From the IMG/VR virus record IMGVR_UViG_3300025913_000024, positions 47,478 to 111,477 of that record: 64,000 bases of DNA, one strand, 5' to 3'. Below the pieces are notes generated by a model. That model had not been told where the DNA came from, searched no databases, and was given only the letters and a program-made list of their open reading frames with translations. Positions 2,803-56,973 of the stretch are shown here, in pieces. Source of the stretch: a virus (lineage: Duplodnaviria; Heunggongvirae; Uroviricota; Caudoviricetes). Numbering within the stretch: position 1 is the stretch's first letter; every line of letters begins with the position of its first letter. A program made the position numbers and the translations under genes.

Positions 2803-2814
2803 TGAGATATTGAG
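2803..2814 (+). promoter_or_regulatory. TGAGATATTGAG promoter-like motif (extended -10-like TGnGATATT)
   Basis: One of about 10 copies of TGAGATATTGTAG-like sequence, each 5-27 nt upstream of a start codon or RNA gene and often just after a terminator. Confidence 0.5.
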
Positions 2815-2828
2815 ATTAGGAGACGAAA

Positions 2829-3107
2829 ATGAAGACCCTTCTTTTGCTCATCGCTCTTGGTAACGGCCACTTTCAAGAACAGATCGTCTATCCTGACCAC
2901 ACGGTGGAAGGAGTTGTTTCTTTCGAAAAAGAGAACAAGGTCAATGTTCAGTTGAAAGGAAACACGATCCCGTCAAGCTACAAGGTCAAGAATGACATCT
3001 TGGTCGTGGAAGAGATGGGTTTTGCTGTGGAGAATCATGGCAAGGAGATCTGGTTGATCCCGTTGACTGAAACTCACTACAACAAGATCATCCTGAAGAA
3101 GAATTAA
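2829..3107 (+). CDS. hypothetical protein (92 aa)
   Basis: RBS AGGAGACG 8 nt upstream; ATG start. Confidence 0.55.
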   Translation: MKTLLLLIALGNGHFQEQIVYPDHTVEGVVSFEKENKVNVQLKGNTIPSSYKVKNDILVVEEMGFAVENHGKEIWLIPLTETHYNKIILKKN

Positions 3108-3592
3108 CGAGCGAAGTTGATAGGAACGATAGTGGCTCCGATCGAACCTTCTTTGCTGGTGAGTCGGAGTCCTTCTTCCATGAGTAAGAAGAGTTGTTCT
3201 TCAGAATCAACTTGGTGTTGGAAAGAATCAACGATGATTCTGAGGCATCGATTGACTTGGTCTGTCAACACAGTTTTTTGTTCTTGAAGTTCCTTGATGA
3301 CAGAACCAAGGCTCTCAAGATTAGCGGTGTCTGTCTTGACACCATTGATGTCCATGCTTGGAGTGTACATCAATCCAGGCAATCCAAGGTGAGCAGTGCC
3401 AACGTTGGCAGGTTTTGAGTACTTGTAGGTCAACTCTGCATACTTGGTCTCAGAATCAAGAAGGTCCTGAACTGCTTCATTGTACACAGGAAGAAGCTTA
3501 GAGACAAGCTCTAAGTTGCTGACAACATTTCCGTGATGTTGGTTGAACTCTGTCTTAAGTTGAGCAAGAAGCTCCTTGGCATTGACTGTCAT
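3104..3592 (-). CDS. hypothetical protein (162 aa)
   Basis: Minus-strand ORF whose end overlaps the next gene by 1 nt. Confidence 0.55.
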   Translation of the reverse strand: MTVNAKELLAQLKTEFNQHHGNVVSNLELVSKLLPVYNEAVQDLLDSETKYAELTYKYSKPANVGTAHLGLPGLMYTPSMDINGVKTDTANLESLGSVIKELQEQKTVLTDQVNRCLRIIVDSFQHQVDSEEQLFLLMEEGLRLTSKEGSIGATIVPINFAR

Positions 3593-4131
3593 TACTTTAC
3601 CTCGTAAAAGATCTTGGTTCCAGCTGGGTACTCAACACCTTCAAAGAAGGTAGATTGATTTAGTACCAAAAAAGGCAACTGAGGTTCGTGCTTAGGGTAC
3701 GGAGCCACAGGAGAACCAACGACATTGGCGAGATTTTCACTAGCAGATTGAACGTCTTCCAAGTTCTTCTTGGGATAGACAACGTTTAATTGAGCACTAC
3801 GATCATTCACCCCATCTCCACCAAACTCTGGTCCTAACTTTGCACCTTCAGGTGTGAAGAGGAAGTAATTGGCCCAAAATGAAAGGTCAGCTGCGTCAGA
3901 GTCAAAAGCTGTCTGTAGACCCTTGAGAGCACTCACGAGAGGGTTCTCTTGGATCATACCAAACTCTTCGCTGGTAGTTCCTTGTGAGGAATTTTGAGGA
4001 GATCCTGGGATCTGAGATGGTCGATCTACAAAGTATCGCTGAGCAAACTCATCAACGTTCTCTCCTGTAGGAGGAAGAAAGTTGACGTCTTTCAGGAACT
4101 CAGCGATCGTAGATTCCTTAAAGCCTTTCAT
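3592..4131 (-). CDS. hypothetical protein (179 aa)
   Basis: Minus-strand ORF in a three-gene block with overlapping stop and start codons. Confidence 0.55.
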   Translation of the reverse strand: MKGFKESTIAEFLKDVNFLPPTGENVDEFAQRYFVDRPSQIPGSPQNSSQGTTSEEFGMIQENPLVSALKGLQTAFDSDAADLSFWANYFLFTPEGAKLGPEFGGDGVNDRSAQLNVVYPKKNLEDVQSASENLANVVGSPVAPYPKHEPQLPFLVLNQSTFFEGVEYPAGTKIFYEVK

Positions 4132-5813
4132 TACTTGTAAGCTCCAGCCTTTCCTAAGAGTCCTTGACCTTCGAACTCGTCCTTGTATGCTTTGAAAGCA
4201 TACTGATCAAGTTCCTTGAGCCAAGCGTCATCGATCTCGTAGTACATGTTGTCAAGGCGATCTAACCATTTGTGATCTAGCTCACCTTCTTTGGCGTCTT
4301 CTTCTAATTGACCTTCTTCGTTACAATCATAGCAAGGAGCAGTTCCTTCACCGTGGCATTCTTCACAGTCGACTTGATCGATGTTTCCATCTTCGTCCTC
4401 GTCTTCAACTGTTCCTTCACCATCGCATTCTGGACACTTTACATATCTTTTGTTGTGGCAAGAGTAACATTCTTCATGAACACCTTGAACAACATCAGCA
4501 ATACTTTCAAAAATAGTGAAAACCTTTACTCCAGTATCGGTCTTAAAGATACCTTCTCTAGAAGCTAGTTCTAACATCTGGTCTTGAAGATCTGTGTCAT
4601 AAGAGTTGTTGCTAAAGTATCCTCGTTTCTCAGAGGCATACCCGTTATCAAGATACTGCATGATTCCACCATTACCGATCTGGTAGTTAGCAGCTCCAAA
4701 GAACACAACAATTGCTGCTTCATCTCCATAGGTATGTAGAATGTACTCAATGAACTCTCCCCAACTCTTGTCTTTAGCAGGACCGTTGTCTTGCCAATCT
4801 TCGTAACAAATGTCCATAATGGTCTGGAGGAAGCCGTGTTCTTCACCACTCTTTGGGGTTGCCTTTAATTTAGAGACAAGGTTTTGGGTGATCTTTTCTT
4901 GAAGTCTTTTATCGTTCATGTTTGTTCCTTTTGTGGATTCTTCAAAATCTTCATTCAAAAACTCATTAGGATTCACTGCATTCAAGAAGTCTTGAGCCAA
5001 AAGAGTTGCTGCAGAATGAACAATGCTTGCGTGGTCTTTTGCTAAGTGCCATCTTTTAGCATCTTCAATGAAAGAAACAATGGTTTCTAAGCTCACCATA
5101 TTGTTGATCCAATTTCTAGTTTTGTCTTGGTTGTAGTCATCTTCTGAAAGAAGTTCAACTGCGTCATCAATAACTTCATCGACAATTTCATCATGCTCAT
5201 GTCTAAATGAAGATTCTTCAAATCTAGTCTCGTGTTCAAAATCTTCAATCATGTCTTTTGGATCATTTAAGACTTCAAGAACTACTTCAGATAGCTCATC
5301 TGCATCAGACATGTTAGTAATTCTTTCTACATAACTTTTAACAAAACGATCCAAACTCTTAGAGTTTTTAACCTTAGTTTTGTTTTTTATGATCATCTTG
5401 AAAACTTTTTTAACGTTTCTAATGATGTCGGCCATGTAGTTATTCCACTCATCATTCCATTCATTTACATCGTCTTCGTCTTGCTCAAAGTCCATGTTTT
5501 CAATTTTTCTTTCATGAGACTTAAAGGCTTCGAGATCATCCTTAAGGGACTCGATAGCTATTTTGTCCAAGTTAGGTTGCATTCCGCCTCTAGCCTGCAT
5601 AAGGTTCACCATAGAGTCGGAACCAAGTGATTCTGAAAGGAGATTAGAAAGAAGAGAATCTAAGGTGTTAAGTGCTTCATGAGCCTTGAAACCATGTACA
5701 AACATAGCCTTTCTTTGCGCGTCAGCTTTCTTCTTTGAACGGAATTTGTGTGGATGTTTTGGAGGATTATCTCCAACATTTTCGTAGCCACCGTCAACTT
5801 TCTCTGTGCCCAT
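4131..5813 (-). CDS. acidic protein with C-terminal DnaJ-type cysteine-rich (CxxCxGxG repeat) zinc-finger domain
   Basis: C-terminus contains CYSCHNKR, CPECDGEG, CEECHGEG and CYDCNEEG, which is four CxxC(xGxG) repeats like the DnaJ CR domain. The rest is an acidic or basic low-complexity protein. Confidence 0.6.
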   Translation of the reverse strand: MGTEKVDGGYENVGDNPPKHPHKFRSKKKADAQRKAMFVHGFKAHEALNTLDSLLSNLLSESLGSDSMVNLMQARGGMQPNLDKIAIESLKDDLEAFKSHERKIENMDFEQDEDDVNEWNDEWNNYMADIIRNVKKVFKMIIKNKTKVKNSKSLDRFVKSYVERITNMSDADELSEVVLEVLNDPKDMIEDFEHETRFEESSFRHEHDEIVDEVIDDAVELLSEDDYNQDKTRNWINNMVSLETIVSFIEDAKRWHLAKDHASIVHSAATLLAQDFLNAVNPNEFLNEDFEESTKGTNMNDKRLQEKITQNLVSKLKATPKSGEEHGFLQTIMDICYEDWQDNGPAKDKSWGEFIEYILHTYGDEAAIVVFFGAANYQIGNGGIMQYLDNGYASEKRGYFSNNSYDTDLQDQMLELASREGIFKTDTGVKVFTIFESIADVVQGVHEECYSCHNKRYVKCPECDGEGTVEDEDEDGNIDQVDCEECHGEGTAPCYDCNEEGQLEEDAKEGELDHKWLDRLDNMYYEIDDAWLKELDQYAFKAYKDEFEGQGLLGKAGAYK

Positions 5814-5973
5814 TAGTGCCTATCTCCTTGCCAATGGTGAATTAGTACTTCAGATTCGTATATTATTAGAATCCGTAAATTGTGCAAAATCAGAAAAATC
5901 TAATCTAGAATTTTGGAATTTTGCACTCCACAAAACACTAATTAAGACTCGTGCACAGGAGCAAAAGTTCACC
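5814..5973. promoter_or_regulatory. divergent intergenic control region between the minus-strand block and the nrd operon
   Basis: 160-nt AT-rich spacer between divergent genes. Contains inverted repeat GTGCAAAAT (about 5879) and ATTTTGCAC (about 5924). Confidence 0.4.
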
Positions 5974-8298: not shown

Positions 8299-8320
8299 AG
8301 GAAAAGGAAGGAGAAGAGGT

Positions 8321-8614
8321 ATGGTTAAGATCTACACCACCAATAGCTGCGCTGTTTGCAAGCGAGCTAAGACTGATATGCTAGTTAAGGGCATTGCATA
8401 TGAGGAGCACAACGTCGAAGACAACGAACAAGACTTTGACGTGATGATTGAGGCGACTGGAAAAACTGCCGTTCCTCAATTTGACATCGATGGAGAGTGG
8501 GTGGTAGGTTACAACTCTTCGGTCATTGAGAAGGCTTCACGAGATGAAGACGACTTTGAACTTGTTGGAGTAGGTGGACAAGAGTACGCAACTTGCGAAT
8601 CTTGTGAAGGTTAA
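8321..8614 (+). CDS. nrdH: glutaredoxin/NrdH-like redoxin
   Basis: 97 aa with N-terminal CAVC (CxxC) motif in context YTTNSCAVCKRAK; located between nrdA and nrdB. Confidence 0.75.
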   Translation: MVKIYTTNSCAVCKRAKTDMLVKGIAYEEHNVEDNEQDFDVMIEATGKTAVPQFDIDGEWVVGYNSSVIEKASRDEDDFELVGVGGQEYATCESCEG

Positions 8615-8615
8615 C

Positions 8616-9617: not shown

Positions 9618-9649
9618 CTCAGACTAATTGAGAAAATAGGAGAAACATT

Positions 9650-9916: not shown

Positions 9917-9917
9917 T

Positions 9918-9929
9918 TGAGATATTGAA
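9918..9929 (+). promoter_or_regulatory. TGAGATATTGAA promoter-like motif
   Basis: Recurrent motif 15 nt upstream of ATG 9945. Confidence 0.45.
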
Positions 9930-9944
9930 TCCACGGAGGAGTTA

Positions 9945-10145
9945 ATGCCCGAAGAGACATTGACCGAACAGGACATCCGGAAAGCCTTCTCTGAAGGTAA
10001 GGTTGTCCAGGTGAAGATCCCCGGAGATTCTGGTGTGATCGATCAGCGACCTGGTTTCAAAGGGTCGGATCTGAACATCAAGTGGAACTCCGGAATGCGA
10101 ACGCCGTTCTTCATGAACAAAGACACGGTCTTCACGATCAAGTAA
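9945..10145 (+). CDS. hypothetical protein (66 aa)
   Basis: RBS GGAGGA 5 nt upstream; followed by a bidirectional terminator. Confidence 0.5.
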   Translation: MPEETLTEQDIRKAFSEGKVVQVKIPGDSGVIDQRPGFKGSDLNIKWNSGMRTPFFMNKDTVFTIK

Positions 10146-10151
10146 AAGAAA

Positions 10152-10177
10152 AGGTTCCCGAAAGGGAACCTTTTTCA
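10152..10177. terminator. bidirectional rho-independent terminator (GAAA tetraloop)
   Basis: AGGTTCCC-GAAA-GGGAACCT flanked by an A-run and a T-run; sits between convergent genes. Confidence 0.8.
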
Positions 10178-10178
10178 T

Positions 10179-12404: not shown

Positions 12405-12512
12405 TTAGTAGCGCCACATTGAATAGTTATTTATTCAATAAAAAAATTCAATCTGTTTACTAGCTCCAAGCTGTACACTAATTATTTTACCCCATTTTAG
12501 AGGTTAAAAACC
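12405..12512. promoter_or_regulatory. divergent promoter region with perfect palindrome ATTGAATA-N6-TATTCAAT (12418-12439)
   Basis: 108-nt AT-rich spacer between divergently transcribed terminase and membrane-protein genes; palindrome read directly. Confidence 0.45.
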
Positions 12513-13553: not shown

Positions 13554-13578
13554 CTAATTTTTGCTTGAGGTGAGCAGT

Positions 13579-24509: not shown

Positions 24510-24761
24510 ATGCCACTAAAACCTCGAATCGGTGTCCACTACGAAAGCATCAGGCCACAAGAAACCGCTGAGATGGCCATTCAACGACTTAAGATCAGAC
24601 CTAAGGATTGGGTCATTCTTCCTATCATCAAACTTTCTGGATCTCAAAAGATCCTTCCACTTAAGTTCTCAGGTATCTCAGACTCGATGACTAAGATCGA
24701 AGGACCTGGTTTTATCATTGAAAAAATGTACGATCTTTTGACTAAATCCCAAATCTCTTAA
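24510..24761 (+). CDS. hypothetical protein (83 aa)
   Basis: ORF co-oriented with neighbours. Confidence 0.45.
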   Translation: MPLKPRIGVHYESIRPQETAEMAIQRLKIRPKDWVILPIIKLSGSQKILPLKFSGISDSMTKIEGPGFIIEKMYDLLTKSQIS

Positions 24762-24772
24762 GATATTGTAAG
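24759..24772 (+). promoter_or_regulatory. TAAGATATTGTAAG promoter-like motif
   Basis: Variant of the recurrent motif, 13 nt before ATG 24786, at the start of a GC-rich island. Confidence 0.4.
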
Positions 24773-24785
24773 ACGAGAGGTGAAC

Positions 24786-25082
24786 ATGATCGGAAAACTG
24801 ATTGGTGGTGTGGTCCTCGTGATCATCGCTGCTATTCTGTTCTGGCTGATTTGGGGTCTTCTGACCCCCTGGATCGTCAATTCCATCCCCGCTGGGGAGT
24901 GGAAAGCTTTCATGGGTGTGGTGGTCACCATCGTCGTGGGTTGGTTTGGAGGAATCGTTCTTCCTCTGGTCCCCCTGATTGCTGGTATCGTCTTCATCTT
25001 CAAGTTCTTCGGTCAGGCTTTTGCCTTGGCCACCGGTTCGAACATCGGTAAGTATCGTTACCGTGGTCGTCCCTACCAGTAA
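24786..25082 (+). CDS. small integral membrane protein (3 TM), on a GC-rich island
   Basis: RBS GAGAGG; hydrophobic throughout; noticeably higher GC than the flanks; followed by a terminator. Confidence 0.6.
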   Translation: MIGKLIGGVVLVIIAAILFWLIWGLLTPWIVNSIPAGEWKAFMGVVVTIVVGWFGGIVLPLVPLIAGIVFIFKFFGQAFALATGSNIGKYRYRGRPYQ

Positions 25083-25103
25083 GAACTTTCAGTTTTGTTA
25101 AAG

Positions 25104-25129
25104 ATCCTCCCGAAAGGGAGGATTTTTTA
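25104..25129 (+). terminator. rho-independent terminator (GAAA tetraloop)
   Basis: ATCCTCCC-GAAA-GGGAGGAT followed by T6. Confidence 0.85.
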
Positions 25130-25149
25130 TTGTCTTCTAGATATACTAC

Positions 25150-25162
25150 TGAGATATTGTAG
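25150..25162 (+). promoter_or_regulatory. TGAGATATTGTAG promoter-like motif (only 5 nt before ATG, so a leaderless transcript is possible)
   Basis: Exact consensus copy. No Shine-Dalgarno sequence lies between the motif and ATG 25168. Confidence 0.45.
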
Positions 25163-28223: not shown

Positions 28224-28652
28224 ATGAGATTCACTCAAGAATGGTTTAGAAACTCACCACAAGAAGAAGTCAAGCTATTGAATGGTGAGGAAGTTTGGGT
28301 CTGCGATTACAGATTCACCTCATTAGGCAACAAGCCTATTCGAGTCATTGTTCCGACTCTTTGTATCATCCACGTCAGTTTTTACGTGGACAAGTACTAT
28401 CCTAGAGGAAACCCGATTCCTGTTGTAGAACTCAAGATCAAGAAGAACGGAAAAGATCTTAAGGTAGAAGACAACACAACGGCCTACAACAACTGGCTGA
28501 AGATCTTTAACGATGAACAAGAGTGCAGAGCTTTCTTCAGAGAACAAATGACCGAAAACCTTGATGACCTAGACGAGTGGGAAAAAGGTCAGATAGAAAG
28601 AGCTGCAGAACTCAGAGCTACAATGCACAAGCTCCTAAAGGAACACGGATGA
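28224..28652 (+). CDS. hypothetical protein (142 aa)
   Basis: Preceded by a 140-nt AT-rich spacer. Confidence 0.5.
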   Translation: MRFTQEWFRNSPQEEVKLLNGEEVWVCDYRFTSLGNKPIRVIVPTLCIIHVSFYVDKYYPRGNPIPVVELKIKKNGKDLKVEDNTTAYNNWLKIFNDEQECRAFFREQMTENLDDLDEWEKGQIERAAELRATMHKLLKEHG

Positions 28653-29449
28653 GCAACAAATTTAAGAACGATTCACTTGGAACAAGGATGAAGGAGAACT
28701 ATGAGAACAGATCAAAGATCTTTCTCCCTCGTAGAACCTACATCATCCTTCGTGTGGATGGCAAAGCTTTTCACACATACACGCGTGGTCTATTAAGGCC
28801 TTTCGACCAGGGTTTGGTCGAAGACATGGACGCTACGGCAATCTACCTTTGCAAGAACATCATGGGTGCTCAGTTCGCCTATGTACAGTCTGACGAGATC
28901 TCTATTCTTCTCACAGACTTTGACACCAACGAGACCCAATCTTGGTTTGACAACAATGTCCAGAAGCTTGCCTCAGTCTCTGCTTCTATGGCAACCTCAG
29001 CTTTCAACAAGGCCAGGATTTCAAGGTTCATGGCTACTACGACAGCAGTTCCTCTCGAGGATGCTGTGGACAAATTGACTTGGGCAGAGTTTGACTCTCG
29101 TGCCTTCCAGATCCCTCAGAAAGTTGAAGTAGAGAACTACTTCATCTGGCGTCAGCAGGATGCTACAAGAAACGCCATCTCCAGTGCTGCTCAATCTGTC
29201 TACTCCCACAAAGAACTTGAGGGAAAGTCTGGAGATGAGAAGCAAGAGATGATGTTTCAGAGAGGCATCAACTTCAACGACTATGATCCTAAGTACAAAA
29301 GAGGTCGTTTGATCGTTACAGAAACTTTTCCAAGTATCTCAGTTACATCAGGTGACATGGCAATTAGAACAAAATGGGTCTCCACGGCCGCTCCTATCTT
29401 CACTCAAGATAGAGATGATCTCTCTGATAGAATTCCAGAAAGTAGGTAA
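28649..29449 (+). CDS. Thg1-like protein (tRNA-His guanylyltransferase family 3'-5' nucleotidyltransferase)
   Basis: Start ATGA overlaps the upstream stop. Motifs ILRVDGKAFHTYTRG, YVQSDEISILL and QKLASVSASMATSAF match the Thg1 signatures VVRLDGRNFHRF, YGQSDEYSFVF and SKFMTHVASQFAS. Confidence 0.75.
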   Translation: MSNKFKNDSLGTRMKENYENRSKIFLPRRTYIILRVDGKAFHTYTRGLLRPFDQGLVEDMDATAIYLCKNIMGAQFAYVQSDEISILLTDFDTNETQSWFDNNVQKLASVSASMATSAFNKARISRFMATTTAVPLEDAVDKLTWAEFDSRAFQIPQKVEVENYFIWRQQDATRNAISSAAQSVYSHKELEGKSGDEKQEMMFQRGINFNDYDPKYKRGRLIVTETFPSISVTSGDMAIRTKWVSTAAPIFTQDRDDLSDRIPESR

Positions 29450-29786: not shown

Positions 29787-30020
29787 ATGAGCTGTTTAGT
29801 TTGTGGCCAAAATGCGTTTGATAGGATTGACATCACTATCCCTGGAGTTCCCAGAGTATATTTGAAATCCTCTAGAGGAGAAGTTGATCTTTCATTTTGC
29901 ACGATCTGCGGAACTGTCAAAGCTGACGTGCCCTTCCCATCTACAACTAGAGCTGCTTTGTTAGAAGATAGATATAAAAAGATCTTAGAAAGAAACAGTG
30001 GTTTGTCCACAGATCCTTGA
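29787..30020 (+). CDS. small zinc-ribbon protein (CxxC...CxxC)
   Basis: CLVCG ... CTICG. Confidence 0.45.
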   Translation: MSCLVCGQNAFDRIDITIPGVPRVYLKSSRGEVDLSFCTICGTVKADVPFPSTTRAALLEDRYKKILERNSGLSTDP

Positions 30021-30030
30021 GATATTGTAG
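30018..30030 (+). promoter_or_regulatory. TGAGATATTGTAG promoter-like motif
   Basis: Exact consensus, 21 nt before ATG 30052 (RBS AAGGAGG between); starts a GC-rich island. Confidence 0.5.
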
Positions 30031-30051: not shown

Positions 30052-30282
30052 ATGCCCGCTATTTCGGATATGGTCGAGAAGTACAAGGAACGAGTGATCG
30101 TTCTGGAACGGAAGATCTCGAACGCTGGTTACGGTGGATCCTCTGACTACACGTCGGAGACTGAACGTGAGACCTTGATTGAGGTCATCAATGATCTCGA
30201 GGCCATGTCTGGTCTCGAAAGAACCATCTTCCCTGAACCCTTCAAGGAAGGTTGGCACGGAATGATTGGAGGTCCGAACTAA
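30052..30282 (+). CDS. hypothetical protein (76 aa)
   Basis: Strong RBS AAGGAGG; GC-rich island. Confidence 0.55.
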   Translation: MPAISDMVEKYKERVIVLERKISNAGYGGSSDYTSETERETLIEVINDLEAMSGLERTIFPEPFKEGWHGMIGGPN

Positions 30283-37354: not shown

Positions 37355-37816
37355 ATGAGAAGAACCTATAGAATAGAAAAGTCTTTAGATATTGAGGAGT
37401 TCATTAGAATAACTAATGAATCGTTAACCATGAAACAAGCTGCTGTGAAACTTGGTCTTCATTTTAATAGTTTCAGAAGAATAGCAGTAAAGTATGGAGT
37501 TTATCGACCTAATCGTGGAGGCAAAGGAACCCATAAGCATAAAGAAAATGGGACTACACCTCTTACTGAAATTTTGGAAGGAAACCATCCATCATATCAA
37601 ACGTTTAGATTAAAACTTAGATTAATTTCAGAAGGAATTTTTATTCCAGAATGTTCTGAATGCAAAAATACTCAATGGAATAAAAAAGAAATTCCTTTAG
37701 AGTTAGATCACATAGATGGAAATTCTTCTAACCATCTTTTAGACAACTTACGATTGTTATGTCCAAATTGTCATGCACAAACTGAGACGTATAGAGGAAA
37801 AAACAAAAAGTTTTGA
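37355..37816 (+). CDS. free-standing HNH homing endonuclease
   Basis: C-terminal HIDGNSSNHLLDNLRLLCPNCHAQTE (HNH with CxxC). N-terminal HTH-like segment. The gene is markedly AT-rich relative to its flanks. The ORF track starts at TTG 37349; the first ATG is at 37355. Confidence 0.7.
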   Translation: MRRTYRIEKSLDIEEFIRITNESLTMKQAAVKLGLHFNSFRRIAVKYGVYRPNRGGKGTHKHKENGTTPLTEILEGNHPSYQTFRLKLRLISEGIFIPECSECKNTQWNKKEIPLELDHIDGNSSNHLLDNLRLLCPNCHAQTETYRGKNKKF

Positions 37817-37825
37817 GATATTACT
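37814..37825 (+). promoter_or_regulatory. TGAGATATTACT promoter-like motif upstream of the tRNA-like gene
   Basis: Motif variant 11 nt before the tRNA-like 5' end; overlaps the HNH stop codon. Confidence 0.4.
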
Positions 37826-37836
37826 CAAGCAAGTGA

Positions 37837-37947
37837 GCGGGAGTGGAGAAATGGTGAGACTCAGCGGACTTATGAATGCATTCTAACTAGTGCATTGAAT
37901 AAATCCGCTGCTTAAGAGGCGTGCCGGTTCGAGTCCGGTCTCCCGCA
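37837..37947 (+). tRNA. tRNA-like gene with a long variable arm and a roughly 28-nt hairpin insertion in the anticodon loop (possible intron-containing or degenerate tRNA)
   Basis: Acceptor GCGGGAG pairs with CTCCCGC followed by discriminator A. Canonical T-arm GCCGG-TTCGAGT-CCGGT. D-arm GAG/CTC with a GG-containing loop. Anticodon stem GCGGA/TCCGC is separated by 35 nt instead of 7; the first 7 nt CTTATGA would give anticodon UAU. A 14-nt variable region is present. Confidence 0.4.
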
Positions 37948-38476: not shown

Positions 38477-38489
38477 TGAGATATTGTAT
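38477..38489 (+). promoter_or_regulatory. TGAGATATTGTAT promoter-like motif
   Basis: Directly after the hairpin and upstream of an ORF-less 140-nt segment ending in a terminator. Confidence 0.45.
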
Positions 38490-38656
38490 ACGTAATGACC
38501 TAGAGCTTGAGCATAGGTTAAGCCAAACGGTAAAGTAAAGGCCGCCAAATAGCAAAAGGGAGGGTTTCTATCTTCTAAAGATCTAAACCACTATATTTTG
38601 TTTTTTTAATAGATTGTTTTTCGAAAAGGGAACCTGTTGGTTCCCTTTTCCTTTTT
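38490..38656 (+). ncRNA. candidate small non-coding RNA (promoter motif, then about 135 nt with no ORF, then an intrinsic terminator)
   Basis: No ORF longer than a few codons. Terminator AAGGGAACC-TGTT-GGTTCCCTT plus TTCCTTTTT at 38626-38656. Confidence 0.3.
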
Positions 38657-38666
38657 GTGAAGAGAA

Positions 38667-38706: not shown

Positions 38707-39917
38707 ATGGCCCGTATTGAAAAGCTGATCATGGTGACCGGTGAAGAGAATCACAACAAGGTCTATGAGCTGATCGACAACGAGAACGGTACTTGTACCG
38801 CCAAGTGGGGTCGGGTTGGCGCTGCTCTTCAGGAGTGCAACTACCCCATCAGCGAGTTTGAAAAGAAGCTCAAGGAAAAGGTCAAGAAGGGCTATCGCGT
38901 GATCACCGATCTTCTGTCTGTCGAGAAAAGTGATGGTAAGACCACCACTACGGACGACGAAGAGGTAAAGATCCAGAACATGTCCCGTGAGGCCATGGAG
39001 TTGATCAACTTCCTCCAGAGTTGTGCTAAGGCATCGTCAAGCAGAACTACACCGTCAAAGTTGCCGACGTTACTCAGAAGCAGATCGACGCTGCTCAGGC
39101 CATCCTGGACGGACTGGTTGCTCTGTCCAACCAGAACTGGTCTCGTGAAGAGGCCAACAAGATCCTTTTGGATCTTTACAACACCATCCCCCGGAAGATG
39201 AGCAACACCAAGAACTTCCTCATCCAGATCGACAACATCACGAAGAAGCGCCTTCAGGAGTTGATCTCCAGTGAAGCCGATCTTCTTGACGTTATGCGCG
39301 GTCAGGTTCAGACCACGAACGTTGCTCCCAAGTCTTCCACTGGCGAAGTCAAGTTGGATATTGAGATTCGTCTCGCTACTCCCGATGAGATCGATGAGAT
39401 CTCCAAGAAGACTGACTTTGATGTTCGTAGTGCTGCAAGGATCTATCGGGTGGAGAACACCAAGACCAAGAATCGCTACGAAAGTATCAACAAGCAGAAT
39501 GAACAGCTTCTCTACCACGGTTCTCGCAGCCAGAACTGGTGGTCGATCATCAACGGCGGTTTGAAGATTCGTCCGACCAACGCCGTTCACACTGGCTCGA
39601 TGTTCTCCGATGGTATCTACGCTGCTGACAAAGCTCAGAAGTCTCTCGGTTACACCGACGGTGGTTATTGGACTGGTAGCAGTGGTTCCTCGAAGAGGTT
39701 CCTCGGCATCTACAGTTTCAACCTCGGTCGTCAGTGGGATCTGTTCGCTGGTGGTCAGCGTCATGCCAGCTGGATGATGCAGCTCAACCTGAAGAAGATC
39801 AACGACAAGGGTTTTGACTCTCTGTTCGCTAAGGGTGGAGCAGATCTTCGCAACAATGAGATGATCGTGTTCGAAGAGGCTCGCTGCACCATCAAGTATC
39901 TGATCGAGATGCGTTAA
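38707..39917 (+). pseudogene. PARP-like ADP-ribosyltransferase (WGR domain, helical region, H-Y-E catalytic domain), split by a -1 frame change near 39027-39032
   Basis: N-terminal WGR motif TAKWGRVGA. C-terminal LLYHGSRSQNWWSIINGGLKIRP ... GSMFSDGIYAADKAQKS ... NEMIVFEEARCTIKYLIE parallels PARP1 [23 protein letters not shown] ... GYMFGKGIYFADMVSKS ... NEYIVYDIAQVNLKYLLK. Frame 1 turns into Ser/Thr/Arg-rich nonsense after ...FLQSCAK. Frame 0 is open from 39030 and reads as sensible protein. A single continuous 403-codon gene needs a 1-nt change. Confidence 0.75.
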
Positions 39918-39919
39918 CC

Positions 39920-45291: not shown

Positions 45292-45310
45292 GTCATTTGA
45301 TTTACTGATC

Positions 45311-45336: not shown

Positions 45337-45350
45337 TTTACTAATTGATC

Positions 45351-45689: not shown

Positions 45690-45690
45690 A

Positions 45691-46359: not shown

Positions 46360-46361
46360 TC

Positions 46362-49228: not shown

Positions 49229-49293
49229 GGATTCATTCCTCCGAGATTCTTTATCAATTAGTGCAAATAACTCGTAAGTTTATAGGAACGCAT

Positions 49294-49322
49294 AAAAAAA
49301 GCACCCCGAAGGGTGCTTTTTC
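49294..49322. terminator. bidirectional rho-independent terminator
   Basis: A7-GCACCC-CGAA-GGGTGC-T5. Confidence 0.8.
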
Positions 49323-49338
49323 AATCGAAAGAGATTGA

Positions 49339-49869: not shown

Positions 49870-49918
49870 AAAGACTCCTTAGAAAATCTCCATGTTACTC
49901 ATGGGTTTTCTACCCTAG

Positions 49919-50119: not shown

Positions 50120-50125
50120 GATAAG

Positions 50126-52123: not shown

Positions 52124-52518
52124 TATGAACCTATCCTAGTGATCTGAATATAGCTGGCCGTAGGACTGCTTGACGCAGTTCCTGTAGTGTCACGCACATC
52201 GATAGTATCATTGACTGCCAGACGAACAGTCGTCACCAATTGTACACGACCTGAACTACTACCGTCAGAGCCTTGCTTGAATGCACTACCATTTTTGTAA
52301 AGAGTCACAATATGACCTGACGATACTATGCAAAGAGCTGTGATTTGATACACACCAGCTTTAGGCGCGGTAAACTTCCAGGTACCTGTACCTGTGGTTA
52401 CACATGAATCTGTATCTTCAACGAGTGTGGACCAGTTGATCGGAGTGTTAATTGTTGCTGCATCTGAGTTTGAATACTCAGCACGAATGAGGGATGTTTC
52501 CATCCATAGTTTAGCCAT
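52123..52518 (-). CDS. stand-alone C1q-like fibre-tip domain protein (131 aa)
   Basis: Whole protein matches the C-terminal domains of both fibre proteins (WKFTAPKAGVYQITA ... LYKNGSAFK ... SYIQITRIGS); start and stop overlap the neighbours. Confidence 0.55.
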   Translation of the reverse strand: MAKLWMETSLIRAEYSNSDAATINTPINWSTLVEDTDSCVTTGTGTWKFTAPKAGVYQITALCIVSSGHIVTLYKNGSAFKQGSDGSSSGRVQLVTTVRLAVNDTIDVRDTTGTASSSPTASYIQITRIGS

Positions 52519-55500
52519 TAGCTACCGATCCTTGTGATCTGGATCCACACGTTAACGTCTGATGGTTGAGAAGCAGCACTGTCGTTTTGAAGCCAGATCT
52601 GATCTCCTACTACCAATCGAAGAGTGATGTTTGAAGAACCAGAGGTTGCTGTTACTGGAGTGGTACCAAAGTACCTCCATCTAGAACCATTCTTAAAGAT
52701 CTGACAGTTACCTGCTGTTCCTGTGGTATAGGAGTTGGTTTCTACCAAATAGAGTCCAGCAACTGGACAAACGAACTTCCAGCTTGCTCCTGTTGTGACA
52801 GCACTGTGAGTATCTTCCACTTTCGTTTGAAAGTTAAGAACTACGTTAGTTGCCGTGGAAGGAACAGAGATGTACTCAGCTCTAACCATGGATGGTTGTT
52901 CAGCCATGTTTCCATTGCTGACTTTTCTAACTCGCCACTTAACAGTAGAAAACGCACTCCAAGCTGAACCGTTATTGGTTCCATAAGTTGATCCAGGATA
53001 AATACCGCTGTTTCCTATTTCTACTAGAGCTCGTTTCTTGTTGGTTGTGTCTCGTCTTACTTGAACACCATATCTGGCGTTACCTTGAACAGCAAATTCC
53101 ATAAAAGCATAAAGAGGTCCCCAACCTATTCCGTTATCGTTTATCTCTAGAATAAGTTGGTCTGTAGATTGAATCTCTCTAGCAAAGTCAACAGCGTACT
53201 TTGTGGAGAATCCGTTAGAGAAGTCTGTACTGACAACAGCAACAAAAGCACTTCCATCTTGACCAGTTTTTTGTCCTGTGGTAAAGGTGGTGTTGGTAGT
53301 TGTTCCTCCAGATCCATCGTTAGATGCATACTCTGTGAAATCGCTTGCTAGGTTTACATTTGACGACCATTGAGAGATCTTAGCCTGGAAGTAAACTGTG
53401 ATGACGTCTGTAGACGCCCATGTGATTGGGGTGGTTGCTGTCCATGCTGTAGCTCCGTTACCACCAAAGGGGTAACGATACTCCAAGTTAAATCCGATTC
53501 CTCCGCCTAGAAGACCAGGAGATAAATCACCACCATAACGTGAAGATGAGTGGGTTCCTATTGCATATCCAACAGGCCTGAAGGTTGAGGTTAATCCTGA
53601 AGGGAAAAGAACGTTGATCTGACCAGTAACTGCTCCAGATAAGGTGATAGCTATGACACCTTCCAAAAGATCGCCTTTACGCCAAACGTGAGAGTTTGCT
53701 AGGTCGATAGTTCCAGGAACGTTTTGGAAAGACATTTGACCGGCGTACTCTCCACCAATTGCTGCTCCAAGAACTGGAATGAATGGAGTGATAGTAACTT
53801 GATCGATGTTCATGGTCCAAGCAAGAGCGTTTGTTGTGGCAACATGGAAAACCAAACGATAACTTGTTGATGTCGAAGCTGGCCAGAAGGTAGCTGAGAA
53901 ATAGGTTCCAGCTGAAGCAGTTGGAAGAGAGTTTATTGAGATCGGAATGAAGTTCGAGTTTGTCTTATCATATAGATAGGCTAGAATGTCTCCTGCAGCG
54001 TAGTTTGTTGATGTCTTGAAGTAGAAGGACAAACCTAGAGTGGAACCTAGAACAGCCGGATCCAAGGTAAAGTCATATGAGATTCCTTGACCTTGTCTGT
54101 TGGCAGCATCTTTGGTAATTAGACCATCGCCTGTTCCAATGAGAGGTGTTGTTCCATTTCTAGCTAGAGTAAGGACAGCTGTTCCACCAGTTCCATCAAC
54201 TGGCGTTGCTGAAGCTCCATCGTTGTATGTTGCCCAGCCAGAGATATCACTCTCAAATGTTCCATTAGAAATGTAGTTCAATCCACTGGACGGGTTGGTG
54301 AAGATGACGCTAGGGTTGTTCAACAAAACTGTATCAGGGAAAGCTTGAACTGTCCAAAAAGAGATCACTGTTCCAGTTGAGTCTTTTACACTTAAAGAGG
54401 AAAGATCTGGAATGTTAAAGGTGGTTGAACCATCTCCAACTCCATAAGAAGTTCCCCACAATGAGAACAACTGAGAATAAAAAGATCTACCAACAGCAGC
54501 TCCGTTCAATTGTAAGAGGTTTCCTGGAAGAGATCCAACAGAACCTGTCCAAAGAGTTGTTCTTCCAAGTCCTACAAGAGCCGTTGTTCCTGTGATGACT
54601 TGAACAGGCTCACCAATGGTGATCAAGAGGTCGGTGGCGTTGACAGCGATACCGATAGCAACTCTGAAGCTTCCAATGGTGATGGTGTTAGGATCTGTGA
54701 TGACTTGGCCATTTGTACCAAGATAGTAAAAGGTTCCAGGTGTCATTCCTGATCCGAAACCAACCATGATCGAGCCAGAGGCTTGCCAAACAATGGTAGC
54801 TGCAGAAGCTCCTCCATTGAAAGCTATTCCAATAGCAGTAGCTGTTGTCTCGGTGTCGTTGCTAGCGTGTTGAAGTGTTCCAGAGGACGTGATGTAGACC
54901 ACTCTCTTGGTGGTGACTGCGTTTGTTCCTACGGTTCCTGTAGATGAAGCAGAACCTCCAACAGGAGTCCAGTTTGCGTGGGTTGTGTCTGTTGATGGAT
55001 CGTGGTTTAGGTTACCGTTGGCGTTAGAAGAATAGGCAACACCTAATCTGTTGATGATCGCGTATTGGGTGTAGGTAACGTTTGATTGCCAAAGAGGAAG
55101 AGACGAGATTCTAAAAGCTTCTTTGACTGAAGCTTGAGAAGGCGGTTGAGTAGTGGAGTTTGATGCGAAGGTAGCATCATCTATGGCAGCAAGACCAGAC
55201 AAAGCTGAACTGAGACCCGTGACATTAGCTATGACTACGTTAGCAAACACTCCTGAAGCTGATAAAAATTTACCTGCTGCAGTATCACCAGAAGCTGGTG
55301 CAGGAACCACACCTTGAGTTCCACCAGATCCTGAATCTCCTATGAAAGTAGGAAGATGAACCATAACTGAAGAAGGACTGTTAGCTTGAGGAATAGCAGA
55401 ACTTCCTGAAAAGTTACTGAGGATAGCATTGTTTGGTATGCTAGCCATCTTAGTAAGAGTTACTGCTCCGTTTGAGATCGTTGTAGAAAGAGATCCGGCA

Positions 55501-56936
55501 GAGTTTGTTACATCTCCAGTTAAGGCAGGAAACTGAGCAGCCTGTAAGGTTCCTGATACATCAGAGCTAAGAGAGATAGACAAGAGGGTCTTAACTTGAG
55601 AAGGCGTTAATGCGGCTGGAGTGGCTGGAGATCCCGTGTTGTTTCCGATGATAGAGTTGGCTGCCAGGTTTGCCATCTTGGAAAGACCAACTGCTCCAGC
55701 AGAGATGGTAACAGACAATGAGCCTGATGTTGTGGTAGCATCTCCTGTTAAGGCCGGAAATTGAGCAGCTTGAAGAGTTCCAGAGACATCTGTAGAAAGA
55801 GAGATCGCTAGTAAGGTTTTAACTTGAGTTGAGGTCAACTCAGATGGTGCTGCTGAAGAACCTGAAACGTTGCCTAAGATCGATGAGTTGGAGATGTTAG
55901 CCAACATTGACAAGGTGACTTGACTAGCTCCGATTGAGAACTGAGTTCCAGTAAGTGTTAAACCAGAGCCTGCTGTGTAACTAGGAACAGCGGAGAACTG
56001 GACGAAAGTGATGTTTGTGGTTCCTACGGTCAAACCTGAAGTAGGTGTTGTACAAACCCATCCTGTTGAAGCATTTATTGTACCAGAAAGAACTAGAGAG
56101 AAAGCACCGAAGAACTCCGTAGGAGCATCCATACCAACAGATCTTGTAAGAACTACAAAGAGTCCAGCTCCACCGGCGTTGGTGACTGTATAAAGACCAT
56201 TGTGAGGTTGATTTCCTCCTGTCTCGTTCTTAACTAGAACAACATCGCCTAACGAAAGAACAACGCCATCTATGGTTAAGGTTCCACTTCCGTTCATGGT
56301 GATCGTAGCACCGACTCCTGAGGTTCCGTTGGAGTAGGTGTTGGAAGGAAGAGCCGTTGTTGTGGCTACTTTAGCAGAAGATTTGACAGACAAGCCTTGA
56401 GCTGTCATGTCAACGTAGTTCTTGGTAGCGATGTCTTGAGCAGCAGAAGGATCAACGACTTGAGCTCGGCCAGATCCATCTCTTAGAACTGGTTGGTTTA
56501 CTGTTGCTGAAGAGGTTCCTACTACCACCCAAGTTCCACCAGCTGATAAGAACTTATGACTAGAGAAATCTCCAGAGGCTGGAGCTGGAACTAGACCAGC
56601 TGTTCCTCCAGAACCTGAGTCTCCAACCAAGATAGAAAGGTAAGCTGTGATGGCTGAGATCGCTGTAGCGACAGGTATTGCTGGAGACCCTGTGACGTTG
56701 GCTAGAACAGTGTGAGACGCTATGTTTCCTAGACCACCTGCTGCTAAAGCATCTTCTAGGTCTGGGATATCTGAGATCTGAGGATAAGGTTGGTTGTCTC
56801 TCTTGATCCCGTTCTCAGGATCAAACTCCATGGACCTACCATTCTGAGAAATGGTGATCTTAGCTCCGGCCGTGATCTGTCCGGTTGTTTTGAGAGTACC
56901 GGTAAGGATGGATGGAACTAGGAGAGGATTTGCCAT
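52518..56936 (-). CDS. large tail fibre protein (1472 aa) with internal repeats and a C1q-like C-terminal tip
   Basis: Three roughly 72-aa tandem repeats (residues about 336-520). Duplicated FIGDSGSGGTQGVVPAPASGD segment. Central ANRQGQG module. C-terminal ...NVWIQITRIGS. Confidence 0.65.
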   Translation of the reverse strand: MANPLLVPSILTGTLKTTGQITAGAKITISQNGRSMEFDPENGIKRDNQPYPQISDIPDLEDALAAGGLGNIASHTVLANVTGSPAIPVATAISAITAYLSILVGDSGSGGTAGLVPAPASGDFSSHKFLSAGGTWVVVGTSSATVNQPVLRDGSGRAQVVDPSAAQDIATKNYVDMTAQGLSVKSSAKVATTTALPSNTYSNGTSGVGATITMNGSGTLTIDGVVLSLGDVVLVKNETGGNQPHNGLYTVTNAGGAGLFVVLTRSVGMDAPTEFFGAFSLVLSGTINASTGWVCTTPTSGLTVGTTNITFVQFSAVPSYTAGSGLTLTGTQFSIGASQVTLSMLANISNSSILGNVSGSSAAPSELTSTQVKTLLAISLSTDVSGTLQAAQFPALTGDATTTSGSLSVTISAGAVGLSKMANLAANSIIGNNTGSPATPAALTPSQVKTLLSISLSSDVSGTLQAAQFPALTGDVTNSAGSLSTTISNGAVTLTKMASIPNNAILSNFSGSSAIPQANSPSSVMVHLPTFIGDSGSGGTQGVVPAPASGDTAAGKFLSASGVFANVVIANVTGLSSALSGLAAIDDATFASNSTTQPPSQASVKEAFRISSLPLWQSNVTYTQYAIINRLGVAYSSNANGNLNHDPSTDTTHANWTPVGGSASSTGTVGTNAVTTKRVVYITSSGTLQHASNDTETTATAIGIAFNGGASAATIVWQASGSIMVGFGSGMTPGTFYYLGTNGQVITDPNTITIGSFRVAIGIAVNATDLLITIGEPVQVITGTTALVGLGRTTLWTGSVGSLPGNLLQLNGAAVGRSFYSQLFSLWGTSYGVGDGSTTFNIPDLSSLSVKDSTGTVISFWTVQAFPDTVLLNNPSVIFTNPSSGLNYISNGTFESDISGWATYNDGASATPVDGTGGTAVLTLARNGTTPLIGTGDGLITKDAANRQGQGISYDFTLDPAVLGSTLGLSFYFKTSTNYAAGDILAYLYDKTNSNFIPISINSLPTASAGTYFSATFWPASTSTSYRLVFHVATTNALAWTMNIDQVTITPFIPVLGAAIGGEYAGQMSFQNVPGTIDLANSHVWRKGDLLEGVIAITLSGAVTGQINVLFPSGLTSTFRPVGYAIGTHSSSRYGGDLSPGLLGGGIGFNLEYRYPFGGNGATAWTATTPITWASTDVITVYFQAKISQWSSNVNLASDFTEYASNDGSGGTTTNTTFTTGQKTGQDGSAFVAVVSTDFSNGFSTKYAVDFAREIQSTDQLILEINDNGIGWGPLYAFMEFAVQGNARYGVQVRRDTTNKKRALVEIGNSGIYPGSTYGTNNGSAWSAFSTVKWRVRKVSNGNMAEQPSMVRAEYISVPSTATNVVLNFQTKVEDTHSAVTTGASWKFVCPVAGLYLVETNSYTTGTAGNCQIFKNGSRWRYFGTTPVTATSGSSNITLRLVVGDQIWLQNDSAASQPSDVNVWIQITRIGS
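55377..55931 (-). repeat. intragenic imperfect tandem repeats (about 216 bp x 2.5) within the large fibre gene
   Basis: Visible at nucleotide level (GCCATCTTAGTAAGAG... / GCCATCTTGGAAAGAC... / GCCAACATTGACAAGG...) and at protein level (...QVKTLLAISLSTDVSGTLQAAQFPALTGD appears twice). Confidence 0.7.
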
Positions 56937-56960
56937 AACTTTGATAATTAGTCAAATTTT

Positions 56961-56973
56961 TGAGATATTTTAG
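56961..56973 (+). promoter_or_regulatory. TGAGATATTTTAG promoter-like motif
   Basis: 18 nt before ATG 56992, in the divergent spacer next to the fibre gene start. Confidence 0.4.

What the first reader, a model, noticed from the sequence alone, without database searches (positions are those of the whole stretch)
2803..56973. Recurrent TGAGATATTGTAG element (extended -10-like) marking the starts of accessory cassettes, a tRNA and an ORF-less transcript
Near-identical copies occur at 2803, 9918, 24759, 25150, 30018, 37814, 38477, 38667 and 56961, with a weaker copy at 1614. Each copy is 5-27 nt upstream of a start codon or RNA gene, several lie immediately after an intrinsic terminator, and every GC-rich island begins with one. 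The core TGnGATATT resembles an extended -10 promoter. The copy at 25150 leaves only 5 nt before the ATG, implying a leaderless mRNA. It probably defines one temporal promoter class, or the portable promoter of moron cassettes.
Basis: seen in the sequence. Interest (0 to 1): 0.6.

Follow-up and report, generated by a model that had tools for sequence, protein, structure and literature searches.

The report
Phage extended -10 promoter class
A 13-base signal, TGAGATATTGTAG, sits just upstream of small accessory genes, a tRNA and a short non-coding RNA in an uncultivated ~306-kb phage, and is most likely a "-10 only" promoter read by the host RNA polymerase: real and tidy, but an ordinary kind of element.

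Summary
The motif is real. TGAGATATT occurs 8 times in the window and TAAGATATT once. All 11 copies are on the + strand, in the 6% of DNA that is non-coding, and 18-41 nt upstream of a + strand start codon or RNA. The anatomy fits an extended -10 promoter: TG, one base, then GATATT with A at -11 and T at -7. A pyrimidine-purine step lies exactly 7 nt downstream in 9 of 11 copies, and -35 hexamers are weak or absent. Three copies directly follow intrinsic terminators and two sit in divergent intergenic regions. Relatives lack this 13-mer; in the same kind of position two of them carry textbook TTGACT-N16-TATATA-ATAG promoters. A second motif, ACTAATT, is conserved across the family and precedes structural and DNA-metabolism genes. 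My best reading is that this is the phage's host-sigma70-dependent, probably early, promoter class in a -35-independent form. No transcription data exist. It is a new member of a known kind.

The parts
2803..2815 (+). Motif copy TGAGATATTGAGA. The predicted +1 is A2818. It precedes a 92-aa orphan gene (2829-3107).
   Evidence: it directly follows the terminator at 2758-2796
9918..9930 (+). Motif copy TGAGATATTGAAT. The predicted +1 is A9933. It precedes a 66-aa orphan gene (9945-10145) that ends at the bidirectional terminator 10148-10175.
   Evidence: -35-like TTGAAC at an 18-nt spacing
24759..24771 (+). Motif copy TAAGATATTGTAA. Its TAA is the stop codon of gene 24510-24761. It precedes a 98-aa gene (24786-25082) and the terminator at 25103-25128.
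   Evidence: (TTGACT-N18-GATATT)
25150..25162 (+). Exact 13-mer. The predicted +1 is A25165, 3 nt before ATG 25168, so the mRNA would be near-leaderless. It heads a run of small genes.
   Evidence: a degenerate tandem copy TAGATATACTAC lies at 25138-25149
30018..30030 (+). Exact 13-mer. Its TGA is the stop codon of gene 29787-30020. It precedes a 76-aa gene (30052-30282).
37814..37826 (+). Motif copy TGAGATATTACTC. Its TGA is the stop codon of the upstream gene. The predicted +1 is G37829, 8 nt before the tRNA.
37837..37947 (+). tRNA gene with a 28-nt insert in the anticodon loop and a long variable arm.
   Evidence: (Rfam tRNA, 42 bits)
38477..38489 (+). Motif copy TGAGATATTGTAT. The predicted +1 is G38492.
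38492..38660 (+). ORF-less transcription unit of about 170 nt that ends in the terminator at 38624-38656. It is a candidate small RNA.
   Evidence: (fold z-score -2.7); no Rfam match and no phage match
38667..38679 (+). Exact 13-mer directly after the terminator. It precedes a WGR-PARP-like gene (38707-39918), which is frameshifted in the window.
56961..56973 (+). Motif copy TGAGATATTTTAG in the divergent region between the 1472-aa fibre-like gene (- strand) and the + block that starts at 56992.
   Evidence: (TTGATA-N17-GATATT, with TG)
2758..2796 (+). Intrinsic terminator (CCTCCTGGG...CCCAGGAGG followed by T6) immediately upstream of copy 2803.
25103..25128 (+). Intrinsic terminator upstream of copy 25150.
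38624..38656 (+). Intrinsic terminator that ends the ORF-less unit, 10 nt upstream of copy 38667.
1613..1626 (+). CGTATATTACTAAG before rIIB. This is not a copy of the motif. It is a family-type TATATT -10 that overlaps an ACTAAG (second-motif) element.
5857..5869 (+). CGTATATTATTAG in the divergent region upstream of nrdA. It is the same variant as at 1613.

Best explanation
TGAGATATTGTAG is the core of one promoter class of an uncultivated ~306-kb phage with a Gp23-type capsid. I read it as T(-15)G(-14)A(-13), then G(-12)A(-11)T A T T(-7), then a GTAG discriminator. That is an extended -10 (TGn/-10) promoter. The primary sigma factor of the host RNA polymerase would bind it through regions 2 and 3, without needing a -35 hexamer, and would start transcription at a purine 7 nt after the hexamer. 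It drives short transcription units: orphan genes, rIIA, a tRNA, a small RNA, a PARP-like ADP-ribosyltransferase gene, and blocks containing methyltransferase, macro-domain and RNA-ligase genes. These are most likely the early genes. The second, family-conserved motif ACTAATT probably serves a phage-encoded specificity factor for DNA-metabolism and structural genes.

Shown here: enrichment, strand, position and anatomy of the motif, and the comparison with relatives. Inferred: that it initiates transcription, which holoenzyme reads it, and the timing.
For: Enrichment: 11 copies of T[GA]AGATATT in 81.3 kb, none on the - strand, and none in coding DNA apart from three copies whose TGA/TAA is the upstream gene's stop codon. 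Only 6.1% of the region is non-coding.

Out-of-sample test: the two copies in new flanking sequence are both exact 13-mers, intergenic and co-oriented with the next gene.

Register: TG lies one base before a hexamer with invariant A-11 and T-7. Y(-1)R(+1) occurs at offsets 14/15 in 9 of 11 copies (P 1.3e-4). Downstream of the motif no other offset exceeds 5 of 11; offset 10, with 8, lies inside the motif.

-35 region: the best -35 match averages 3.45 of 6 against 2.50 at random positions (P about 0.002). Only two copies have good hexamers, TTGACT and TTGATA.

Context: three copies follow strong terminators, and two lie in divergent intergenic regions.

Not a longer repeat: the flanks of the copies are unrelated.

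Relatives: they place TTGACT-N16-[T/G]ATATA-ATA[G/A] or [G/T]ATATT-ATAGG before small orphan genes, with the same Y-R offset in 7 of 7. ACTAATT, by contrast, is conserved in all relatives.

Downstream genes: the first proteins have no Pfam family, apart from the WGR/PARP gene.

Literature: the extended -10 class is defined as lacking a -35 element, and phages use it (PMC3950348; PMC2988021).
Against: There is no transcription-start or expression data, and the host is unknown. G at -12 is invariant where sigma70 promoters normally have T. The 13 bp are far more uniform than ordinary host-type promoters, which could point to a dedicated phage factor. Only 81 of about 306 kb were examined, so a phage sigma factor or sigma-remodelling protein cannot be excluded. 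No - strand unit uses the motif. The early timing rests only on analogy with T4 gene content (rIIA, ADP-ribosyltransferases, tRNA).
Confidence: 0.6

Rival explanations
1. It is a promoter, but one read by a phage-directed polymerase form, as with T4 late (gp55) or SPO1 late (gp33/34) promoters. A phage sigma factor, or a host sigma remodelled by a phage protein, would recognise the whole 13-mer. The class would then be middle or delayed rather than immediate-early.
For: Thirteen nearly invariant positions include non-sigma70 bases: A-13, G-12 and the GTAG discriminator. No conserved -35 element is present. GATATT is the -10 of SPO1 late promoters (PMC3601020). Extended -10 promoters are the class that survives sigma region-4 remodelling by phage proteins such as gp39 and AsiA (PMC3950348).
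Against: The TG spacing, A-11/T-7 and the residual TTGACT/TTGATA hexamers at 17-18 nt are host-sigma70 features. Relatives use textbook sigma70 promoters in the same niche. The motif conserved across the family, as expected for a phage-encoded factor, is ACTAATT and not this one. The SPO1 -35 element CGTTAGA is absent. No conserved element lies near -30, so there is no MotA-box analogue. The precomputed Pfam hits for the genes called across the 81 kb include no sigma domain, apart from about 1 kb (31.8-32.9 kb) that no locus listing covers.
Confidence: 0.2
2. Beyond its promoter activity, the element works as a portable regulatory cassette. Terminator-plus-promoter junctions, like the PeSLs of T4-type phages or lambdoid morons, would let orphan genes be inserted, deleted and swapped by recombination between copies. 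This does not exclude the best explanation.
For: Three copies are terminator-promoter composites (2803, 25150, 38667). Three units are complete promoter-gene-terminator cassettes (9918-10175, 24759-25128, 38477-38656). The downstream genes are orphans with no homologue in the capsid-gene-flanking loci of relatives. Five of nine units are richer in GC than the preceding 1 kb. The 2803 and 25150 junctions share GGAGGATTTTTTAT, and a decayed tandem copy lies at 25138. PeSLs are described in PMC2839356 and PMC4122927.
Against: Only 13 bp are shared, and flank identity is 0.31/0.26 against 0.25 for random sequence. That is too short for the homology patches invoked for PeSL recombination. Eight of 11 copies have no adjacent terminator. 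Structural genes and rIIB are also GC-rich, so GC may track expression level rather than foreign origin. No close relative (the nearest capsid protein is 74% identical) is available to show insertions or deletions at these junctions.
Confidence: 0.25
3. It is an RNA-level signal in 5' leaders, such as a processing site or a binding site for a translational repressor, and not a DNA promoter.
For: The motif is always on the sense strand, 18-41 nt before start codons.
Against: It also precedes a tRNA and an ORF-less RNA. It lies directly after efficient-looking terminators and in divergent regions, where no upstream transcript would carry it. No common secondary structure or pairing partner is evident, and the flanks are unrelated. 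The Y-R step at the canonical start distance fits initiation.
Confidence: 0.04
4. The functional strand is the opposite one. The reverse complement CTACAATATCTCA contains TACAAT, a good -10 element that would drive antisense or leftward transcripts.
For: TACAAT matches the consensus at 5 of 6 positions. In the two divergent regions it would face - strand operons.
Against: The bases that would be T-12 and A-11 of TACAAT are among the less conserved motif positions, at 0.8-1.0 bit against 1.8-2.2 for the 9-mer core; over the nine window copies they are A in 7 and T in 6. Nine of 11 copies would only make antisense RNA. The three other - strand unit starts (5814-5973, 12405-12512, 49229-49338) lack the motif and carry ACTAA elements instead.
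Confidence: 0.03

Closest known systems
Extended -10 (TGn/-10) class of sigma70-family promoters, for example the middle/late promoters of Thermus phage P23-45, and the class that resists T4 AsiA
   Same: TG lies one base upstream of the -10 hexamer. A-11 and T-7 are kept. There is no dependable -35 element. The start is predicted 7 nt downstream. A phage uses it for its own genes (PMC3950348; PMC2988021).
   Different: The hexamer is GATATT, with an invariant G rather than T at -12. Thirteen positions, including a GTAG discriminator, are almost fixed. The timing is probably early rather than middle or late. The polymerase and host are unknown.
T4 early promoters
   Same: They are strong host-polymerase promoters ahead of rIIA-type prereplicative genes, small orphan genes, tRNAs and ADP-ribosyltransferase genes, and they show consensus beyond the standard elements (PMC2988021).
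   Different: T4 early promoters are UP/-35/TGn/-10 composites. Here the -35 is mostly missing and no UP-like conservation is seen.
PeSLs (promoter-early stem-loops) of T4-type phages, and lambdoid morons
   Same: A terminator stem-loop followed by an early-type promoter flanks orphan genes in variable regions (PMC2839356; PMC4122927).
   Different: Only 3 of 11 copies have the stem-loop. The shared sequence is 13 bp, not a composite repeat. Recombination between copies has not been shown.
Bacillus phage SPO1 late promoters (gp33/gp34): CGTTAGA-N17-19-GATATT
   Same: The -10 hexamer GATATT is identical (PMC3601020).
   Different: The CGTTAGA -35 element is absent. TG is present upstream. The phage lineage is unrelated.
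T4 late promoters (TATAAATA, gp55)
   Same: Recognition relies on a single short element in the -10 region, with no -35.
   Different: The sequence is different. In this phage family the better analogue of a phage-factor promoter is the second motif, ACTAATT(A), which precedes structural genes and is conserved in all relatives.

Membership tests
Extended -10 (TGn/-10) sigma70-type promoter | TG dinucleotide separated by one base from the -10 hexamer | tested here: met
   TGA+GATATT in 10 of 11 copies and TAA+GATATT in one
Extended -10 (TGn/-10) sigma70-type promoter | -10 hexamer with the key bases A-11 and T-7 (consensus TATAAT) | tested here: met
   GATATT has A-11 and T-7 in 11 of 11 copies and matches the consensus at 4 of 6 positions
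Extended -10 (TGn/-10) sigma70-type promoter | T at -12 | tested here: not met
   G in 11 of 11 copies. Relatives show either G or T at this position.
Extended -10 (TGn/-10) sigma70-type promoter | No discernible -35 element is required | tested here: met
   Only 2 of 11 copies have 5 of 6 matches to TTGACA at 17-18 nt. The mean best match is 3.45 of 6.
Extended -10 (TGn/-10) sigma70-type promoter | Initiation 6-8 nt downstream of the hexamer by a sigma70 holoenzyme | not testable with these tools
   Only indirect evidence exists: Y(-1)R(+1) 7 nt downstream in 9 of 11 copies, P 1.3e-4
SPO1 late promoter (gp33/gp34) | -35 element CGTTAGA 17-19 nt upstream of GATATT | tested here: not met
   The best matches are 2-5 of 7, mostly 2-3. 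The consensus comes from PMC3601020.
T4 middle promoter (MotA/AsiA) | Conserved activator box centred near -30 that replaces the -35 element | tested here: not met
   No strongly conserved column lies upstream of the motif in the alignments of the copies; the best reach 6-7 of 9
PeSL (promoter-early stem-loop) cassette | Composite of a terminator stem-loop plus a sigma70-like early promoter | tested here: inconclusive
   Present at 2803, 25150 and 38667, with a hairpin lacking a T-run at 38477. Absent at the other 7 copies.
PeSL (promoter-early stem-loop) cassette | Copies similar enough over tens of bases to recombine | tested here: not met
   Flank identity is 0.31 upstream and 0.26 downstream, against 0.25 for random sequence. 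The alignment shows no conservation outside the motif.
PeSL (promoter-early stem-loop) cassette | Insertions, deletions or replacements between close relatives with breakpoints at the element | not testable with these tools
   The nearest relative has a capsid protein only 74% identical. The other contigs that carry the identical capsid protein were reported as similar places and not shown.
Moron (autonomous promoter-gene-terminator unit) | Own promoter and own terminator around one accessory gene | tested here: met
   Met for three units: 9918-10175, 24759-25128 and 38477-38656. The other copies head multi-gene blocks.

The most novel reading that the evidence does not exclude
The nearly invariant 13-mer is not just a host-type promoter. 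It would be the recognition site of a -35-independent transcription mode that this phage lineage evolved away from the TTGACT-N16-TATATA promoters of its relatives. It would be read by host polymerase whose sigma region 4 is disabled or replaced by a phage protein. It would also double as a portable junction, PeSL-like, through which orphan genes, a tRNA with an insert and a small RNA are wired into the genome.
Probability: 0.2. Interest if true: 0.55.

Novelty: new member of a known kind. Interest (0 to 1): 0.35.

Why it matters
The result gives a usable transcription map for a deep-branching, uncultivated ~306-kb phage. There are two promoter classes. One is host-like and lineage-specific (this motif). 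The other is conserved across the family (ACTAATT). The map lets early accessory units, a tRNA and a candidate small RNA be delimited without experiments. If confirmed, the comparison with relatives would show an early promoter class shifting from -35/-10 to TGn/-10 within one phage family. That shift bears on how phages escape, or exploit, shut-off of -35-dependent host transcription. In itself it is an expected kind of element.

Tried and rejected
- Megablast of 8 kb against GenBank phages found no match.
- Rfam at gathering thresholds found nothing.
- The generic sigma70 promoter scan found no excess over shuffles: 15 against 20.3, 25 against 27.9, and 24 against 28.6.
- A look-up of the 164-aa ORF failed because the window carries a frameshift.
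- The IMG/VR scan for TGAGATATTGTAG-N5-25-GGAG gave 47 single hits. They were mostly inside conserved stretches of unrelated phage families, and none showed a recurring intergenic motif, so they are chance matches.
- The 14-base rule blocked a scan with the bare 13-mer.
- A GTDB scan with the transposase-like protein, meant to guess the host, gave only hits of 43% identity or less across unrelated phyla, which is uninformative.
- A literature search for the 9-mer returned only primers.
- tblastn of the proteins downstream of the motif against relatives' loci found no homologues.
- blastn of the tRNA/small-RNA region against phages found no match.
- Aligning the four terminator-promoter junctions showed no extended similarity.
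- Registers I rejected: TATTGT as the -10 hexamer, because its T-7 base (motif offset 10) carries only 0.76 bit against 1.8-2.2 for the core and Y-R at its start offset occurs in 4 of 11 copies; and the reverse-strand TACAAT.
Full report
**What the window is.** The window is part of an uncultivated phage. It encodes rIIA, rIIB, NrdA and NrdB, a tRNA-His guanylyltransferase-like protein and a 1472-aa fibre-like protein. Its major capsid protein belongs to the T4 Gp23 family (PF07068). The identical capsid protein lies on a 305,853-bp metagenomic contig, ENA ERZ27252312 k141_4393686, and the window matches positions 62138-126137 of that contig, reversed. No GenBank phage is similar at the DNA level. 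The nearest capsid protein among 5.8 billion sequences is 74% identical. Ribosome-binding sites are strong AGGAGG types, and rIIB is about 40% identical to those of phages of Gram-negative bacteria. The host is unknown.

**The observation.** TGAGATATT occurs eight times in the window, always on the + strand, at 2803, 9918, 25150, 30018, 37814, 38477, 38667 and 56961. TAAGATATT occurs at 24759. With up to two mismatches the 13-mer gives 10 matches against 2.19 +/- 1.35 in shuffles.

I extended the sequence by 8.35 kb upstream and about 9 kb downstream using the public contig. This unseen DNA holds two more copies. Both are exact 13-mers. One lies 28 nt before the rIIA start codon, in a divergent intergenic region. 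The other lies before a 66-aa gene that is followed by an Rnl1-type RNA ligase.

In the 81.3 kb taken together:
- All 11 copies are on the + strand.
- All lie in the 6.1% of DNA that is non-coding. The exception is three copies whose first three bases (TGA or TAA) are the stop codon of the upstream gene.
- All lie 18-41 nt before a + strand start codon, a tRNA, or an ORF-less unit.

A position weight matrix built from the copies finds no other site with an intact core. The next-best hits are mismatched in the core and lie in coding DNA. The 40 nt on either side of the copies are unrelated (0.31 and 0.26 pairwise identity, against 0.25 for random sequence), so the 13-mer is not a fragment of a longer repeat.

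- The 1614 'copy' lacks the motif. It reads CGTATATTACTAAG. It resembles a site at 5857 (CGTATATTATTAG) and the -10 regions of related phages.
- Only three of seven stretches with at least 50% GC begin with a copy. The rIIB, capsid and other structural-gene islands do not.
- The tRNA is real but unusual. Default ARAGORN and Rfam at gathering thresholds missed it. Intron-aware ARAGORN and a sensitive Rfam search place it at 37837-37947 (42 bits), with a 28-31-nt insert in the anticodon loop.

**Anatomy.**
- The nine invariant bases read TG-A-GATATT, which is the spacing of an extended -10 element. A-11 and T-7, the two bases that matter most for sigma70-type recognition, are invariant.
- The next three bases, GTA, are less conserved, and the fourth, G, hardly at all (0.38 bit).
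- Seven nucleotides after the hexamer, at motif start +15, there is a purine in 10 of 11 copies. A pyrimidine-purine step occurs there in 9 of 11 (binomial P 1.3e-4). Downstream of the motif, no other offset exceeds 5 of 11; offset 10, with 8, lies inside the motif itself. This supports GATATT as the hexamer, rather than the alternative register TATTGT.
- The best -35 matches at 16-18 nt are only modestly better than at random positions (3.45 against 2.50 of 6, P about 0.002). Good hexamers exist at two copies only: TTGACT at 24738 and TTGATA at 56941.
- No strongly conserved column lies near -30 or further upstream; the best reach 6-7 of 9.
- The predicted 5' leaders are 3-25 nt long.

**Context.** Copies 2803, 25150 and 38667 lie 7-22 nt after strong intrinsic terminators. 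The copy at 56961 and the rIIA copy sit in divergent intergenic regions, where a rightward promoter is required. Three units are complete promoter-gene-terminator cassettes: 9918-10175, 24759-25128, and the ORF-less 38477-38656.

The first proteins downstream have no Pfam family. The exception is the gene after 38667. On the public contig this is a 403-aa WGR-PARP protein. In the window a single-G deletion at 39030-39032 splits it in two. The block after 56961 includes methyltransferase and macro-domain genes. By analogy with T4, this content looks prereplicative: rIIA, ADP-ribosyltransferases, tRNA and small orphan genes (PMC2988021).

**A second promoter-like class.** The two hexamers most enriched in oriented non-coding segments are ACTAAT and GATATT. 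ACTAATT(A/G) and ACTAACTA occur on both strands, always co-oriented with the next gene. They precede the capsid and other structural genes, the 1472-aa fibre-like gene, nrdA and the thyX-recA operon. They also follow the other strong terminators. So each strong terminator is followed within about 25 nt by one motif or the other.

**Relatives.** I examined loci around capsid genes of 61-74% identity.
- All of them keep ACTAATT/ACTAACT at gene starts and after terminators.
- None of them uses TGAGATATT.
- Before small orphan genes, two relatives instead carry TTGACT-N16-[T/G]ATATA-ATA[G/A], a textbook -35/-10 promoter. A third carries GATATT-ATAGG and TATATT-ATAGG. All seven such sites have a Y-R step at the same offset as in the window.

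I draw two inferences. The conserved ACTAATT probably depends on a conserved phage-encoded factor. The variable class is probably read by the host's primary sigma factor, and TGAGATATTGTAG is this phage's version of it, with the -35 lost and a TG gained. That trade-off is the defining property of the extended -10 class, which phages are known to exploit (PMC3950348; PMC2988021).

**Rivals.**
- A dedicated phage factor remains possible. Thirteen nearly invariant positions and a G at -12 are unusual, and GATATT is the SPO1 late -10 (PMC3601020). However, the SPO1 -35 element is absent. The precomputed Pfam hits for the genes called across the 81 kb include no sigma domain, apart from about 1 kb that no listing covers.
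- A PeSL- or moron-like role in shuffling orphan genes (PMC2839356 and PMC4122927) is compatible with the best explanation but weakly supported. Only three copies are terminator-promoter composites, and the shared sequence is 13 bp.
- An RNA-level signal and a reverse-strand TACAAT promoter are unlikely, for the reasons given under the rival explanations.

**Verdict.** The motif is real and highly non-random, and its anatomy and placement are those of a promoter. I put the probability that it is a promoter at about 0.85. I put the specific reading, a host-sigma70 extended -10 class that is probably early, at about 0.6. It is a new member of a known kind and of moderate-to-low interest in itself. 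Two side observations may be more unusual: the family-wide ACTAATT motif, often exactly 11 nt before an ATG with no Shine-Dalgarno sequence, and the tRNA with an insert.

Noticed in passing
window 5937, 9623, 12477, 13553, 14687, 16215, 18300, 19869/19892, 24499, 34693, 37344, 45340 (+ strand); 5846, 12409, 49262, 56952 (- strand); also L001, L003, L068-L070: A second intergenic motif, ACTAATT(A/G) or ACTAACTA, is co-oriented with the next gene on both strands. It precedes structural genes, nrdA and the thyX-recA operon, follows strong terminators, and is conserved in all relatives. Fifteen of 22 ACTAAT occurrences lie in the 6% of DNA that is non-coding. It is probably a promoter for a phage-encoded factor.
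   Followed up: partly
window 24499->24510, 37344->37355, 45340->45351, 12409(-)->12398; L007 14501->14512; L068 15947->15958; L069 7261->7272, 17993->18004, 21605->21616: There is a fixed arrangement, ACTAAnTnnnnATG. The called start codon lies exactly 11 nt after the A of ACTAA, with no Shine-Dalgarno sequence, both in this phage and in relatives. This suggests leaderless mRNAs, or an unusual translation-start signal.
   Followed up: partly
window 37837-37947: The tRNA has a 28-nt insert that extends the anticodon stem into one long hairpin, and it has a long variable arm. Depending on where the insert is removed, the anticodon reads Leu(UAA), ochre suppressor (UUA) or Ile(UAU). The insert contains CTAACTAG, which resembles the second motif. 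The same genome encodes a Thg1-like enzyme (28577-29449) and an Rnl1-type RNA ligase (L007 16948-18045).
   Followed up: partly
window 39030-39032: The window differs from the public contig by one deleted G (GGG becomes GG). This splits a 403-aa WGR + PARP-catalytic-domain gene (38707-39918) into ORFs of 164 and 249 aa. Elsewhere the window is identical to the contig over the stretches compared.
   Followed up: yes
window 38492-38660: This is an ORF-less unit of about 170 nt with its own motif copy and terminator. It folds better than shuffled sequence (z-score -2.7). It has no Rfam family and no match in GenBank phages. It is a candidate phage small RNA next to the tRNA.
   Followed up: partly
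window 25138-25149: A degenerate tandem copy of the motif, TAGATATACTAC, lies directly 5' of the exact copy at 25150. The terminator tails before 2803 and 25150 share GGAGGATTTTTTAT.
   Followed up: no
window 1613-1626 and 5857-5869: CGTATATTAYTA elements lie before rIIB and on the nrdA side of a divergent region. They resemble the TATATA/TATATT -10 regions of related phages rather than TGAGATATT. They may be an older form of the same promoter class.
   Followed up: partly
L007 16715-16735 (outside the window): In this copy the 13-mer is followed by its own inverted repeat (TGAGATAT-TGTAG-ATATCTCA). This could form a hairpin or an operator. It is not seen at the other copies.
   Followed up: no
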